A stretch of DNA of 64,000 nucleotides, from positions 185,628,001 to 185,692,000 of the forward strand of contig OZ024742.1 in the NCBI GenBank assembly GCA_964016885.1, written 5' to 3'. Of this stretch, positions 2,046 through 52,732 are shown one piece after another. The notes beneath the pieces were generated by a model that saw nothing but the letters and a program-made list of their open reading frames with translations, did no database searches and was not told the DNA's origin. Each line of letters starts with the position of its first letter. Position 1 is the first letter of the stretch. This DNA comes from Eledone cirrhosa. Lineage: Eukaryota. Position numbers and translations under genes: made by a program.

Positions 2046-2600
2046 CTAGCAAAAAATATATATATAAAGCTCTGATGATTACCAACAGTATGAAACAGAT
2101 CTGTCAGCTTATCTCCCTTTGTTTGTTAAAAAAAGAAGTAAGTGACATAGTCACTACTTTAAAATAATAGCGCAAGGTCTTCAAAATGTTTTTAATTAAG
2201 CATACAGTGTATTGCCAAATATACTATATATATACATTCATGTATACATCGCTATTTCAGAGCACCAATTCTAATATATATATATATATATAAGTTGTAA
2301 TAGAATGAAAACGAAATTTAATTTCTCACTCTTAGTACGGCACTTACTTAAATGTAAGTATGTATGTATACGTACATACATATATGTATACAGACGTACA
2401 GTAGCATGCATATATATATATATATATATATATATATATATATATACATACAGGTACACATACATATATGTACGTATCAGTTTAGCGGACGTTTATTATA
2501 ACGCCCGCTTTGTCCGTTTGTAAACAAACGGACAGCCTGAATTTATGCCGTACGGTGTTAAGGCAACCACGTCACCTTTTTGTTCAACGCTGACACAGGA

Positions 2601-2643
2601 ACGATGTACTAGTTTCAAGCTTCTTAGCTACCATCAGCACCGT
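2601..2643 (-). ncRNA. Hammerhead ribozyme, mirror copy with core substitution (CTGATGG)
   Basis: Reverse complement of 2949-2991 except for A9->G. Confidence 0.7.
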
Positions 2644-2948
2644 ATACCCTTCTGCCAGATGGTTGAACGTTCGAAAGTATATACTTTCTTATGAAAATTA
2701 ACGGCTGAGCAGCCTAATTTGCATATCGAGTGAGTTCAGTCGGCCAGGCGCACCGAAAACGATAAGTTGTAATAGAATGAAAACGAAATTTCATTTCTCA
2801 CTCTTAGTACGGCACTTACTTAAATGTAAGTATGTATGTATACGTACATACATATATGTATACAGACGTACAGTAGCATGCATATATATATAATTTTCAT
2901 AAGGAAAGTATATACTTTCGAACGTTCAACCATCTGGCAGAAGGGTAT

Positions 2949-2991
2949 ACGGTGCTGATGATAGCTAAGAAGCTTGAAACTAGTACATCGT
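2949..2991 (+). ncRNA. Minimal type I hammerhead ribozyme (core intact)
   Basis: acggtg CTGATGA t-agct-aaga-agct-t GAA actagt A catcgt. Stem I is acggtg/catcgt, stem III is the palindrome actagt, and the GUA site ends at 2985. Confidence 0.85.
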
Positions 2992-3261
2992 TCCTGTGTC
3001 AGTGTTGAACAAAAAGGTGACGTGGTTGCCTTAACACCGTACGGCATAAATTCAGGCTGTCCGTTTGTTTACAAACGGACAAAGCGTGCGTTATAATAAA
3101 CGTCCGCTAAACTGATACGTACATATATGTATGTGTACCTGTATGTATATATATATATATATATATATATATATATGCATGCTACTGTACGTCTGTATAC
3201 ATATATGTATGTACGTATACAACTATACTTACATTTATATATATATATATATATATATATA

Positions 3262-3579
3262 TATTAGAAAGTGAGGGTTTTTTACAAAATGGAAAAAAAA
3301 CCAGGTGTCCTACACGAGTGAAAGTATAAGGAAAAAAGATGAAATCGAAAATGCAACTGGAGTCTTTTTTTAAAAACATATACATTTATTTGGTTCCTTT
3401 ACCGGTTTCGCAGTTCTTCTGCTTTTCAAGAGTAGAATTGAGATGTGCGAAAAACCATAAACCCTCCACCTCAATTCTACTTTGAAAAGCAGAAGTACGA
3501 AATGGGTAAAGGAACCAAATAATATATTTTTTTTTAAAAAGACTCCAGTTGCATTTTCGATTTCATCTTTTTTCCTTAT
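3262..3579. mobile_element. Fold-back element, 'accggt' family (other copies 20686-21028 and 23273-23575)
   Basis: Arms about 3325-3445 and 3467-3579. The left arm carries GAA-accggt-A-aagga (3' half of an HHR) on the minus strand. Flanked by (TA)n. Confidence 0.75.
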
Positions 3580-3825
3580 ATATATATATATATATATATA
3601 TATATATATATATATATAAATTTTGAGTATATGTTGGTGGTTGTTTACCGCCACCTCAGTATGCAGTTTGGAGCACTCTGACGAAGTACGCCGGTTGGTT
3701 TGTTTACTCCGGAGTAATGTAAAATAATTAAGTCAAATATGTAAAATTTGGCTTCGTTTATTACAAATTCTGGTATATATATTTTGGTGACAGCCTTATT
3801 GGCTGTGAGCTCTTCAGGCAGTCCG

Positions 3826-48781: not shown

Positions 48782-49657
48782 TTAGCAGTTATCAAACTTG
48801 ATAATAGTTTTCCTAGCCTCTAGAATAATATTAATTTCGTCCTCCGTTAGGTCTGAATTGACCTTGGCAAACGATAGGGCCTTACGTAAAGTACTGGGTG
48901 AGATTGAGTAGTATTCGTCTATGTCGAATTGTATAAACTTAGACTTAACGTTATTAAACCAGCAAATTACTTCGCTAGTGCTGCTCCATAATTTAATTTC
49001 TATTTTCTTTTTCAATTGAGTTATTACCCTGTCAAGTATATGTTTGATAATTTTTCCTATGACTGATTTAGAAGGGCATATAAGTCTAATCTTAGGGTTA
49101 GAGTTAAAATTTACCTTATGGTCCTTCAGGTTAAAGGTGGTGGTTTCGAGTATAATCGGCTCGGTTCTATCGTCTATCTTGAGATTCTTCACTACTTTGT
49201 ATGCTTCGTTGTTAATGTTCGTTAGTGCAGTTCCACTAGTTTTTCTATATTTCTTATGTAGTTCTTTGCGTATGAAGCTGTTGTATGTATCGATATCCAT
49301 GGTATAGACGTTAGAGGTCTCATCAGCTTTCACAACAATCCCATTGGTATTTTGCAGTCTTCGGAGTAGTGCTTTCATGTTGTCCTACAGCTCATTAATG
49401 TTTGGTAGACTTGATATTCATGGTCATATTCATCAAGTCTTTTTCGAAAACATCGAGATAGGTGTTTGTGGGTGGGTTTTTACATGATTGAAAGCCATAT
49501 GATTCATTGATTGATTCAGACGAGTAACTAGCGTGTCCATTATCGAAATGGAAAGCTTTCCATCGTACACGCCGAATAAAGTCATTATTGCGTTGTATTC
49601 CCTTTTGTTAGGTATAGGTATGTTTTTAAGTGACATACCTATATGTTGTCTTTCCAT
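48782..49657 (-). pseudogene. PLE ORF N-terminus and start of RT
   Basis: MSLKNIPIP..RVRWKAFHF..YGF..VFEKDL..IVVKADETSNVY..LKDHKVNFNSNPKIRLICPSKS..FIQFDIDEYY. Confidence 0.88.
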
Positions 49658-49869
49658 ATTACTGCCGTATGTCGGTGTGGTTGCTCAACTGTGCAGGAGG
49701 CGATTATTAGATTATGCAAGAAATGGGATAAAATAGAATACATTGATAAGAATCTCCATAACGCACATAGCCACACACGAAATCAAAGAATATGTAACCG
49801 GGGTACAGAAATACAAGCGCACACACGCAGTACCACCAGACATACTAATAATAGAAAATCGTCACCAAA

Positions 49870-50653
49870 CTCAAATAAATTACGTTGTAGAAAGTATATC
49901 TGGTATAATCCCATTTTTAATGCTTCGATTAGTACAAAACTATCTCTTTCATTCTTTAAGTTAATTATCAAGTATTTCCCTAGTTCCCATAAATACAGTA
50001 AGATTCTAAACTCCACTGCACCAAACCTTGAAGCATACATAAAAAAAACTTAACTTAAAGCAATTATTAAACAACACTACAAAACAAAATATTTTGGTAA
50101 CAGATGAGCATAACGTAGTATCGCCCCCCCCCCACCCCAACCACCAAATGGGAGACGGGTATTACACAACCCACCTGAACTGTTATCCCAACCTATCCAT
50201 GGTATACCTGCTACCCACAACAAAAACTGCAACTGCCACTTACCCGAAAGATGCCCATTGAAGAATAAATGCCTAGAGTCCAACATTGTTTATCAAAGCA
50301 CTGTCGAATCAAACGACCAGAAATAGTATTACATCGGGTCTTCCACTACTTCCTTTAAATCTCGCTGGTATCGTCATTGATTTTCGATTAAACATCCTAA
50401 ACACCGTCTTGTGACTACGCTCGCCAATGAGACCTGGCAACTCCGAGAATGCAACCGGCAGTTCACCTTGAAATGGGATAAACTATCCAGCGCTAGTGTA
50501 TATCGGAGTGGATTGAAGTACTGCAGATTATGCAACCTTGAACTCTTTTATATCTTAAAATCCCCATACAAATTAATAAATGACAGAATCGAACGATCGT
50601 TACACTGCAACCACAAACTGAAGGCTAAATTCTCTCACTATAAAATAACTTAA
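49870..50653 (+). pseudogene. PLE linker and GIY-YIG endonuclease
   Basis: IWYNPIFN..KYFPSSHKYSKILN..NCNCHLPERCPLKNKCLESNIVYQSTV..YYIGS..FKSRW..CRLCNLE..LINDRIE..CNH. Confidence 0.88.
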
Positions 50654-51190
50654 CATTCGAACCCGAGACTACAACATCGCTTTCTCGCTAACTATATTCT
50701 CTCAGTAACTACTTCCTAACTATATCCCCCACCCCCACACTACAAGACAATACCCTGCTTATCATTATAAATAGATACTTGAGTGCGATTTGTAGACTAC
50801 AACTATGAACCCAATGTATCCCCATCTCGTAGCTTTCGGCTATCTCCTCTCTATCACTCTCTCTCTCTCTCTCTCCCTTCCTCTCTCTCTCGCCCTCGGT
50901 CTACCTCCCTCTCCACATCTATGAACCTGCTCTATGTGGCAATAAACAACTCCAAACTTGACTATATCAACGCAATACCTAAGGTTGTCACTTTGAGAGT
51001 AAGCAGTATAATAAAACCCCTACCACAACATTTTGATTAAGCTATCTGTATTCTTCAAACCACTCTCTCCCATTTCTCCAACCCCTACATATCTCTCTCT
51101 CTCTCTCTCTCTCTCTCTCTTCCTTTTCTACTCTATCTTCCCCAATAACTTCCTTTAAGAAATACAAGGGTATTTACATTTTAACCATTC

Positions 51191-51296
51191 TGCTCTGAGG
51201 AAACGGTAGATGCAGCATTTGAGTTTCTGCAAATAATTACCAATTTGCACATAGCATGACTAGGCTGTATAACTACTGTTGAAACATTTGTAAGCA
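51191..51296 (+). ncRNA. Type I hammerhead with extended stem II (core intact)
   Basis: tgct CTGAGGA aacggtag (about 63 nt) ctactgtt GAA aca-tt-tgt A agca. The GUA site ends at 51292. Confidence 0.8.
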
Positions 51297-52732
51297 CTCG
51301 GAATAAATTACCTTTTTATGATGTCTACCTGTTATTATTCATTCTTTATCTACACTCCGGAATACAGAATGATCAGAAAGTGAGTTTCTTCAACTATTCT
51401 TCCATAACTCGTTGAGTAACCCCTCACCGTACGTCAACTCTATCTAGTGTAGTAATTAACCATTACTGCATTCAGGATAATCCTAAGCATTTCTTTCATA
51501 ACCTAATATATATATATATATATATATATATATATATATATATATATATATATACATATAGCACGCCATGTTTTCATATTTTTCATATATTTATATATTT
51601 TCCTCCGCTGTGACCCGTCTGTTTCTTTCTTACTGCTTCCCCTTTCTCTGTATCTCTCACTTTCTTTTTACCCCCTCTGCCGATCACTCTCTGTGTTAGC
51701 CTCTTCCTCACACTTTCACTCACTCACTCTCTGCTACTCCCTCTCCTACTTCCTCCCGTTTGACCTGTGCGAAATTCTTTCCTTACTCACATTTGGACCA
51801 CGTTGGATGGTCTTTATTCTCTCTCGTCTACGATTTCACAGAACTTATGTTCATCGATTTCAGGGACTTGACTCCTTGTTCCTCACTTTTCGTTGCATTA
51901 CCATCTTTGTTTGTTTACTGTCTCGCTCATTCCCCCAAGTTACGTGTCCCAACGACTTTCTTTAGCCGTTGCTCGCACCAACCAGAGGTATATGGTCTTT
52001 AAAGCGATGAAATACCAATGAAGGCTGGAAGATCACTGATGAAGGACTAAATTTATTCATATATATATATATATATATATCCCCCTCTCTCTCTCTCTCT
52101 CTCTCTCTCTCTCTTTCTCTCTTCCTTTTCTCTAGAAGAAATTGGATGCGCTCTGACCTGGAGAGGAATAGGCTCAATTAGGTTTTAAATGCTCAAGACA
52201 TGCCGTGCATCAGGACGGTGCCCCTACGACTTCATCGTGAGTTAAGGAACCTCTCCTCTCTCGCCTCAATATCCTAACACCCTGCTTTCTATATATATCT
52301 TCCCATTAATCATGTGCATCGATTTATTATATACACGCTTAGTCTTACATTGACATATTAATGCCTTCTGTTTCAACAATATCTTTTCATTCCTATTGTG
52401 CATGTGTTGCTATTTATGCAAAATTAACGGTATGTCTAATAATTATGTCGGTATTTCTTACTGATAATAAATTCACGTGCGTTGTTTTTTTTGTTTTTGT
52501 TTTTTGTTTTTTTTTCGTGGAAATCTAAAGAATGTTTATGGTCGTCGTTGTAATTTTTGTTTTACTCCTTCCAAAATATTATTCTTGTTGAATACGATAG
52601 ATATTTGATTATTGGCCAACTTGCTCTCTCTTAAATCTTTCCATTGGGAGATATGTATGCACTGAGATCTTCTAAGTTCTTTAATCTAGTATGTTGTTGA
52701 TTTGTGGCCCATCTAATTTAATATTATATTAT

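What the first reader, a model, noticed from the sequence alone, without database searches (positions are those of the whole stretch)
2289..51506. Population of hammerhead-capped fold-back elements embedded in (TA)n tracts
Seen: at least 12 inverted-repeat structures (2289-3236, 3262-3579, 7099-7213, 9690-12064, 20405-20670, 20686-21028, 21406-21640, 23273-23575, 26898-27127, 31714-32061, 33896-34285, 48081-51506). They come from unrelated sequence families but share one layout: two copies of the same terminus point outward, usually with a whole or partial type I HHR in each arm, and mostly abut (TA)n. Copies of one family have different centres and arm lengths. Established: PLE pLTRs carry minimal HHRs and can be inverted, whereas metazoan retrozymes are tandem direct arrays. 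Inference: these are products of two-ended target-primed reverse transcription, in which both ends of a (TA)n break copy the element 3' end and the cDNAs join at a variable point. They would then form an abundant class of MITE-looking but retro-derived ribozyme hairpins that repeat annotators are likely to miss or mislabel.
Basis: partly seen in the sequence, partly recalled or inferred. Interest (0 to 1): 0.85.

Follow-up and report, generated by a model that had tools for sequence, protein, structure and literature searches.

The report
Twin-primed Penelope mirror-image insertions
These mirror-image DNA pieces are real, very common leftovers of Penelope-type jumping genes and their small RNA parasites; the shape is already known, but the two halves almost always start at two different fixed points, which likely means one RNA is copied from both sides of a DNA break at once.

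Summary
All 12 inverted repeats are real, and hammerhead motifs point outward (23 of 23 in an unbiased 400-kb sample). They are not a new element class or MITEs. They are head-to-head insertion products of Penelope-like elements (PLEs), an architecture already in print (PMC3846280, PMC8557442, PMC4209133). Five arm families link to PLE ORFs, three of them Hydra-type; two are tandem retrozymes. Each family has a short 3' end and a long one with a 43-156-nt tail. Insertions pair one of each in 76 of 78 classifiable loci, 11 of 11 large ones, 14 of 14 retrozyme ones and 11 of 11 unbiased ones (window: 10 of 12). Often neither arm contains the other, arms share source alleles, and asymmetry does not grow with age. 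Best reading (0.7, inferred): both ends of a (TA)n break prime on one RNA at its two start sites and the cDNAs are joined, often at a fixed 5' limit rather than the ribozyme cut. I did not find this pairing rule in print. This scan reached the same reading before in other genomes and for another retrozyme here.

The parts
2289..3236 (.). Family C head-to-head insertion of a ~490-nt tandem hammerhead retrozyme; long end left, short end right; intact HHR core at +2955, mutated copy in left arm
3262..3579 (.). Family B (Neptune-like PLE pLTR, U3-A8 HHR variant); long left, short right
7099..7293 (.).
9686..12064 (.). Family A (Hydra-type PLE 3' UTR/pLTR); long arms, centre 10552-11190 holds a decayed CxCX5C linker and endonuclease; HHR at -9785 and +11977; exception: both ends short
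20330..20670 (.). Family A; long (tail) left, short right; intact HHR at -20507, 3' half only in right arm; left limit approximate
20686..21028 (.). Family B; exception: both ends long
21297..21640 (.). Family F (young Hydra-type PLE, HHR with long stem II); long left, short right; has an identical twin elsewhere (L216)
23273..23575 (.). Family B; long left, short right
26506..27127 (.). Family E (~510-nt tandem retrozyme); short end left with HHR at -26598, truncated long end right without HHR
31694..32160 (.). Family I (old, ~80% identity); short left, long right; long-stem-II HHR, damaged in right arm; limits approximate; no ORF link found
33858..34285 (.). Family D (pLTR of a CCHH-type EN+ PLE; HHR-like motif with a changed core); long left, short right
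48081..51506 (.). Family H Hydra-type PLE; short left, long right (tail 51348-51506); HHR with long stem II at -48241 and +51195
48785..49620 (-). N-terminal reverse transcriptase fragment in the left arm, joined to the 3' UTR by an internal deletion
49634..50650 (+). Decayed RT C-terminus, CxCX5C linker and GIY-YIG-type endonuclease of the right arm
44029..44296 (+). Family A pLTR with full tail and intact HHR (+44105), preceded by an ~18-nt inverted copy of its own 5' end

Best explanation
These are head-to-head insertions of Penelope-like elements and of retrozymes that likely borrow their enzyme, most likely made afresh at each site when both ends of a cut (TA)n tract prime reverse transcription on one RNA, one end at the upstream (short) start site and the other at the downstream (long, tail) start site. 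SHOWN: two 3' ends per family; heterotypic pairing; non-nested arms; shared alleles; the tail runs into the ORF start in tandem copies; 5' hot spots. INFERRED: a dimeric RT-endonuclease cuts both strands and each subunit takes one start site; the trailing RT displaces the leading cDNA where arms overlap; each cDNA stops independently, often at a fixed 5' limit that is probably the RNA 5' end; the two cDNA ends are joined by 1-10-nt overlaps or short templated inserts. Short 150-500-nt palindromes would arise when both starts lie in the 5' pLTR of the transcript, large ones when one or both lie in the 3' pLTR. The hammerheads ride along in the pLTR and do not set the junction.
For: Pairing long+short: 76 of 78 classifiable loci, and 47 of 48 in core-only queries against 0.49 expected, p 8e-14; 11 of 11 resolvable large insertions; 14 of 14 retrozyme C insertions read; 11 of 11 in 400 kb of unbiased sample. 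The short-ended arm reaches >20 nt further 5' than the tailed arm in 22 of 76, so neither arm contains the other; in 9 the tailed arm is little more than the tail. In young family F (pLTRs mostly 99-100% identical) arms already differ by up to 3 kb, and two independent copies have the tailed arm stopping at the same base (-248) beside a 1.4 or 3.3-kb short-ended arm. Asymmetry does not track divergence (rho 0.12, p 0.37, n 60). Arms of one insertion share minor alleles: 25 vs 6.1, 59 vs 17.2, 14 vs 3.7 in shuffles, p 5e-4 each. PMC11167929: the Anolis PLE protein cuts and extends both strands, is predicted to dimerise, and starts at two sites that bound the tail.
Against: In 16 of 99 loci with an inverted partner, one outer end is at neither start site; several are 20-50-nt inverted copies of the 5' end that fit fold-back as well. 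Two of the window's 12 are homotypic. 86 of 212 loci show no partner. Longer-short and longer-long cases are about equal (22 vs 17), as blind trimming of a symmetric hairpin would also give. Shared alleles could come from conversion between arms or from sister transcripts. PMC11167929 saw no difference in start site between strands and did not examine both ends of one product. The sampled age range is narrow because searches return the closest copies. The 5' hot spot was not shown to be an RNA end. Target-site duplications cannot be read in (TA)n.
Confidence: 0.7

Rival explanations
1. Single priming at the long site, fold-back of the cDNA on itself to make a hairpin second strand, endonuclease trimming at the short site, then later one-sided loss of the palindrome centre.
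For: Gives long+short pairing automatically. PMC8557442 ascribes the tail to EN-mediated resolution. Small palindromes sit at many junctions. Short 5' inverted stubs occur (L010, L018, L135, L244). One-sided centre deletion of palindromes is known in mammals (recalled).
Against: Needs the short arm nested in the long arm, which fails in 22 of 76 and in 4 of 8 large young F insertions by 0.6-3 kb; no age trend; recurrent stop at -248; start sites at both tail ends were seen in vitro.
Confidence: 0.13
2. Two separate RNA molecules or two successive insertions: a second copy is primed into the 5' junction of the first, with some other asymmetry between first and second strand fixing which start site is used.
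For: Elements cluster in shared (TA)n tracts (window 2289-3579, 20330-21740). The PLE endonuclease can cut its own pLTR (PMC11167929). Overlapping arms need no strand displacement in this model.
Against: Independent events predict about half homotypic pairs (seen 2 of 78) and unrelated alleles (one search shows concordance); junctions are flush or overlap by a few bases in 49 of 76.
Confidence: 0.1
3. Self-priming on an antisense transcript, as proposed for Adineta Penelopes (PMC3846280).
For: Palindromes at inverted junctions; head-to-head geometry; published proposal.
Against: Does not by itself explain two fixed outer ends used one each, 75 distinct junctions in 76, or non-nested arms; sense RNA is the template in vitro.
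Confidence: 0.05
4. True MITEs (DNA transposons) or assembly fold-back artefacts.
For: Terminal inverted repeats, TA targets, high copy number; one exact twin of a palindrome at two loci.
Against: Unequal termini, variable centres, continuity with RT and GIY-YIG ORFs; arms differ by 2-3%, with only 2 of 53 identical; strand-switching joints in raw reads of other samples.
Confidence: 0.02

Closest known systems
Insertion architecture of EN+ Penelope-like elements (Arkhipova et al. 2013, PMC3846280; Craig et al. 2021, PMC8557442, Fig. 2)
   Same: Inverted 5'-truncated copy head-to-head with the main copy, tail at one end, partial tandems, palindromes at the junction, (TA)n targets, HHR in pLTR.
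   Different: Here tails are 43-156 nt (published 30-40). Most copies are ORF-less stubs at about 20-28 per Mb. The one-sided tail is a near-strict rule (76 of 78), published only as 'often'. Published mechanisms are EN resolution or antisense self-priming.
Hydra clade PLEs (PMC8557442)
   Same: Families A, F, H: DKT motif (degenerate in the window's H copy), RWK/RWR motif (A, F), CxCX5C linker (A, H), no CCHH, C-terminal endonuclease, HHR, (TA)n insertion.
   Different: Assigned by motifs only, with no tree. F and H hammerheads have a ~80-95-nt stem II.
Dual minimal HHRs on opposite strands 100-700 bp apart in Schistosoma PLE remnants, and the U3-A8 core (Cervera and de la Pena 2014, PMC4209133)
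   Same: The same short opposite-strand hammerhead pairs and the same core variant (family B).
   Different: In the passages I read they were noted in one sentence, without end analysis or mechanism.
Anolis Poseidon PAc in vitro (Frangieh et al. 2024, PMC11167929)
   Same: Both strands cut and extended, two RT start sites bounding the tail, HHR cleavage dispensable, AT-rich targets.
   Different: In the parts I read it does not connect this to inverted insertions or show that the two ends use different sites.
Metazoan non-LTR retrozymes (PMC7229834; bioRxiv 10.64898/2026.07.22.740005)
   Same: Families C and E: non-coding ~490 and ~510-nt tandem monomers with one type I HHR each.
   Different: They carry the PLE insertion signature (two fixed 3' ends, long+short head-to-head pairs at (TA)n). 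The published link to PLEs rests on co-occurrence and pLTR phylogeny. Monomers are larger than the 170-400 nt reported.
L1 twin priming (Ostertag and Kazazian 2001; recalled)
   Same: Two primers on one RNA, inverted 5' part, microhomology junction.
   Different: Here the second site is fixed, the arms usually overlap, and the event is routine rather than occasional.

Membership tests
EN+ PLE insertion | Arm continuous with an RT + C-terminal GIY-YIG ORF | tested here: met
   A (L061, L064, L066), B (L068, L070; Pfam GIY-YIG 2e-7, RVT_1 3e-6 below cutoff), D (L179), F (L310, L311), H (window). Pfam does not recognise the A or H proteins.
EN+ PLE insertion | Same ORF link for families G and I | tested here: inconclusive
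   No continuous ORF within 1.5-kb flanks of 22 loci each
EN+ PLE insertion | pLTR with type I HHR near the 3' end, tail continuing into the ORF start in tandems | tested here: met
   L066, L068, L310; HHR scans
EN+ PLE insertion | Inverted 5'-truncated copy, tail at one end | tested here: met
EN+ PLE insertion | Target-site duplication | tested here: inconclusive
   Flanks are (TA)n of variable length
Hydra clade (A, F, H) | DKT, RWK, CxCX5C linker, no CCHH, C-terminal EN, (TA)n | tested here: met
   Motif list from PMC8557442; sequences. A has RWR; the RWK region was not read in H and the linker not read in F.
Hydra clade (A, F, H) | RT phylogeny | not tested
   Reference set not fetched
Neptune/Nematis (B, D) | DKG, Zn-finger-like linker, cysteines between GIY and YIG | tested here: inconclusive
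   B shows DKG, CX4CxxC and the CxxC; D shows a shorter linker and the CxxC; clade not resolved without a tree
Non-LTR retrozyme (C, E) | Non-coding tandem monomers, one type I HHR each | tested here: met
   L078, L081, L082, L092, L210/L211; no continuous ORF link
Non-LTR retrozyme (C, E) | Self-cleavage and circular RNA | not testable with these tools
   No RNA run listed
MITE | Identical terminal inverted repeats, fixed length and centre, DNA-transposase parent | tested here: not met
   Unequal ends, 75 distinct junctions in 76, retroelement parents
Active hammerhead ribozyme | Self-cleavage | not testable with these tools
   Monomer folds not better than shuffles, z -1.9 to 0.3 for six motifs, as expected for minimal dimer-type HHRs (PMC4209133)

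The most novel reading that the evidence does not exclude
Programmed twin priming is the normal integration route of all endonuclease-bearing PLE clades: one RNA, two fixed start sites, one used by each end of the break. The tail, the inverted pLTR and the mini-palindromes are then one phenomenon. Tandem hammerhead retrozymes carry their own pair of start sites, which is direct sequence evidence that they are inserted by PLE enzymes.
Probability: 0.55. Interest if true: 0.72.

Novelty: new member of a known kind. Interest (0 to 1): 0.5.

Why it matters
How PLEs build their tandem and inverted insertions is named as an open question in PMC8557442, and the last step of the in vitro model in PMC11167929 is left unvalidated. 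A near-strict long+short rule across unrelated families, more than one clade and two retrozymes gives a sharp prediction for the existing in vitro system. It also ties retrozymes to PLE machinery by insertion footprint rather than co-occurrence. In practice, about 60,000-80,000 such hairpins from eight families alone (extrapolated from 8-11 in 400 kb) can pass as MITEs or microRNA precursors: Rfam gave microRNA-family matches below their curated cutoffs and no hammerhead at gathering score.

Tried and rejected
Rfam: no hammerhead among the 150 of 202 E-value matches shown, and 0 matches at gathering score. Pfam did not recognise the Hydra-type fragments. The first automated tally failed on a parameter slip. 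The second (73 of 77) used D and G references that contained their own inverted arm and was replaced. HHR cleavage as the junction-setter: rejected, since arm 5' ends within 6 nt of the cut are 3 of 71 (A), 0 of 65 (B), 0 of 28 (D). Stalling of the trailing RT at the short site: 9 of 76 tailed arms stop near it, not clearly enriched, and the mirror class is undetectable; not claimed. Age-dependent trimming: no trend. Expression: no RNA holder listed, which is no evidence either way. The window's own junctions were not checked against reads, and no long reads were available. A protein search of the own genome was not completed; local tblastn on fetched loci was used instead. Monomer folding of hammerheads was uninformative. 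A shared sequence motif at the start sites was looked at by eye only; the short TA matches are expected by chance and are not claimed.
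Full report
Observation. The window lies in a 3.0-Gb animal assembly (G000:C3:185628001-185692000); I did not establish the species. Masked self-comparison recovers all 12 inverted repeats. 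Minimal type I hammerheads occur far above chance: 5 strict hits vs 0 in 10 shuffles, and 11 vs 0 in 4 with a long stem II allowed. By reading the arms, 23 of 24 hold a whole or partial motif, 7 intact, all pointing outward. In 40 evenly chosen 10-kb stretches the scan finds 60 hammerheads (shuffles 1, 2, 0). Of these, 48 have (TA)5 within 200 nt on their 3' side and 9 on their 5' side. All 23 that lie in inverted-repeat arms point outward; 15 of 78 inverted repeats carry one. Orientation is therefore not random.

What the arms are. The 12 elements belong to nine families. Five are 3' ends (pLTRs) of endonuclease-bearing PLEs. A is continuous with RT and endonuclease frames in L061, L064 and L066, F in L310 and L311, and H in the window itself. 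They show the Hydra-clade motifs listed in PMC8557442: DKT, RWK or RWR, CxCX5C, no CCHH; not every motif was read in every family. B is continuous with a DKG-type RT and a GIY-YIG domain (L068, L070), and D with a CCHH-type ORF (L179). In tandem copies the pLTR runs through the tail straight into the ORF start. C and E are non-coding tandem monomers of about 490 and 510 nt with one hammerhead each, that is retrozymes. G and I showed no ORF link in 22 loci each. Family B carries the U3-A8 core known from PLEs (PMC4209133). F, H and I have long stem II inserts, and D has a changed core. These variants escape simple searches and Rfam.

Every family has two 3' ends at (TA)n: a short one and a long one that adds a tail (A 92, B 62, D 43, F 110, G 71, H 156 nt; C about 60 and E about 150). 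I classified 212 of 214 loci from eight searches (two dropped as the same insertion seen twice). Of these, 99 have an inverted partner at the junction, 86 have none, and 27 run beyond the locus or the reference. Of the 99, 5 are clipped and 16 have one end at neither site; of the remaining 78, 76 pair long with short, 1 is short-short and 1 long-long. Queries that did not include the tail give 47 of 48 against 0.49 expected (p 8e-14). Twenty larger stretches resolved 11 multi-kilobase insertions, all long+short; 9 were unresolved. Retrozyme C, read by hand, gives 14 of 14 among 30 loci, with 5 more ambiguous. The unbiased sample gives 11 of 11, 8 of them with junction gaps of 40 nt or less, or about 20-28 per Mb for eight families. 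In the window 10 of 12 follow the rule; 9686-12064 is short-short and 20686-21028 long-long.

Junctions. 75 of 76 are distinct; 40 overlap by a few bases, 9 are flush and 27 have inserts. Arm 5' ends pile up at a family limit: 32 of 71 within 8 nt of -174 in A, and 41 of 65 near -148 in B. They do not pile up at the ribozyme cut (3 of 71, 0 of 65, 0 of 28). The short-ended arm reaches more than 20 nt further 5' in 22 cases, the tailed arm in 17, and 37 are level. In the 22, each arm holds sequence that the other lacks. In young family F, arm lengths relative to the short site are, tailed/short: 2534/1125, 2445/343, 1601/2190, 1496/197, 1518/2152, 250/3279 and 250/about 1400. Asymmetry is unrelated to divergence. 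Arms of one insertion differ by 2-3% but share minor alleles three to four times more often than shuffled pairs, so they come from one source. Raw reads of three other samples from one study, laid on a family A stretch, show strand-switching joints at nine listed position pairs, three of them in all three runs. The tool does not give their orientation, and the window's own junctions were not tested.

Mechanism. A single cDNA folding back cannot yield arms that are not nested, unless large one-sided deletions follow quickly. Independent events cannot yield strict heterotypic pairs with shared alleles. Two primers on one RNA explain both, because two enzymes cannot occupy one start site. This fits PMC11167929 (parts 1-2 of 4 read): both strands are cut and extended, a dimer is predicted, two start sites bound the tail, and ribozyme cleavage is dispensable. 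I infer that short palindromes form when both starts fall in the 5' pLTR of the transcript and the cDNAs run off its 5' end. Against this: 16 of 99 partners end off-site, some as short 5' stubs that suit fold-back; two window elements are homotypic; the near balance of 22 and 17 is also what blind trimming gives; conversion could mimic shared alleles; no RNA data were available. Confidence 0.7.

What is known. PMC8557442 (abstract, Introduction, passages) describes the inverted 5'-truncated copy, a tail often at one end only and (TA)n targets, and calls the formation of these structures unresolved. PMC3846280 (passages, Discussion) describes head-to-head repeats with junction palindromes and proposes antisense self-priming. 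PMC4209133 (passages) notes opposite-strand hammerhead pairs 100-700 bp apart. PMC7229834 (passages) and bioRxiv 10.64898/2026.07.22.740005 (part 1 of 5 and passages) propose PLE mobilisation of retrozymes from co-occurrence and phylogeny. Searches (listings) turned up no paper stating the long+short rule or twin priming for PLEs. The library lacks most subscription papers, including earlier Penelope structure papers, and I read no supplements; either may hold such a statement. L1 twin priming and palindrome centre deletion are recalled. Earlier notes of this scan reached the twin-priming reading in shark and other genomes, and for another retrozyme in this genome. My reading was recorded before I saw them, and they are not independent support.

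Verdict. Real and abundant, architecture known, no new class of element. The value is the pairing rule across clades and retrozymes, which makes an open mechanistic question directly testable. Interest 0.5.

Noticed in passing
window 21297-21640 and L216 (G000:C2:393545317): The family F palindrome has an exact twin (0 differences over 343 nt, same junction, different flanks) on another contig, so finished palindromes may occasionally be recopied as a unit.
   Followed up: partly
window 8424-9008: Mirror duplication centred inside a (TA)n tract (8508-8919, 10 mismatched positions in 412) that spans pieces of two unrelated repeats; local fold-back or assembly error.
   Followed up: no
window 43661-44015 and 51743-52054: A further family with a hammerhead half-core right at the (TA)n end and an internal ~100-nt inverted repeat; two copies 96% alike in opposite orientation.
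   Followed up: no
   Followed up: no
window 1070, 2072, 21132, 44507: Further intact type I hammerheads outside the 12 elements; those at 21132 and 44507 end near (TA)n.
   Followed up: partly
L078, L210 (families C and E): Both retrozyme monomers contain an internal (TA)n tract of variable length; in E the short start site lies right at it.
   Followed up: no
L014 junction: About eight tandem copies of a ~19-nt piece of the pLTR 5' end fill the junction, suggesting repeated re-priming while the two cDNA ends were joined.
   Followed up: no
window 2289-3579 and 20330-21740: Different families stack end to end in shared (TA)n tracts, each insertion leaving new targets.
   Followed up: partly
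window 1400-2100: Decayed PLE reverse transcriptase fragment similar to family A proteins.
   Followed up: partly
window 58626-59716 and 41023-42634: Decayed ORFs that look transposase-like (recalled, untested) and a 29-bp minisatellite of about 53 copies.
   Followed up: no
window 20798-20909, 23348-23548: These palindromes score E 1e-13 to 1e-14 against plant microRNA precursor models (below gathering score): a mis-annotation risk.
   Followed up: yes
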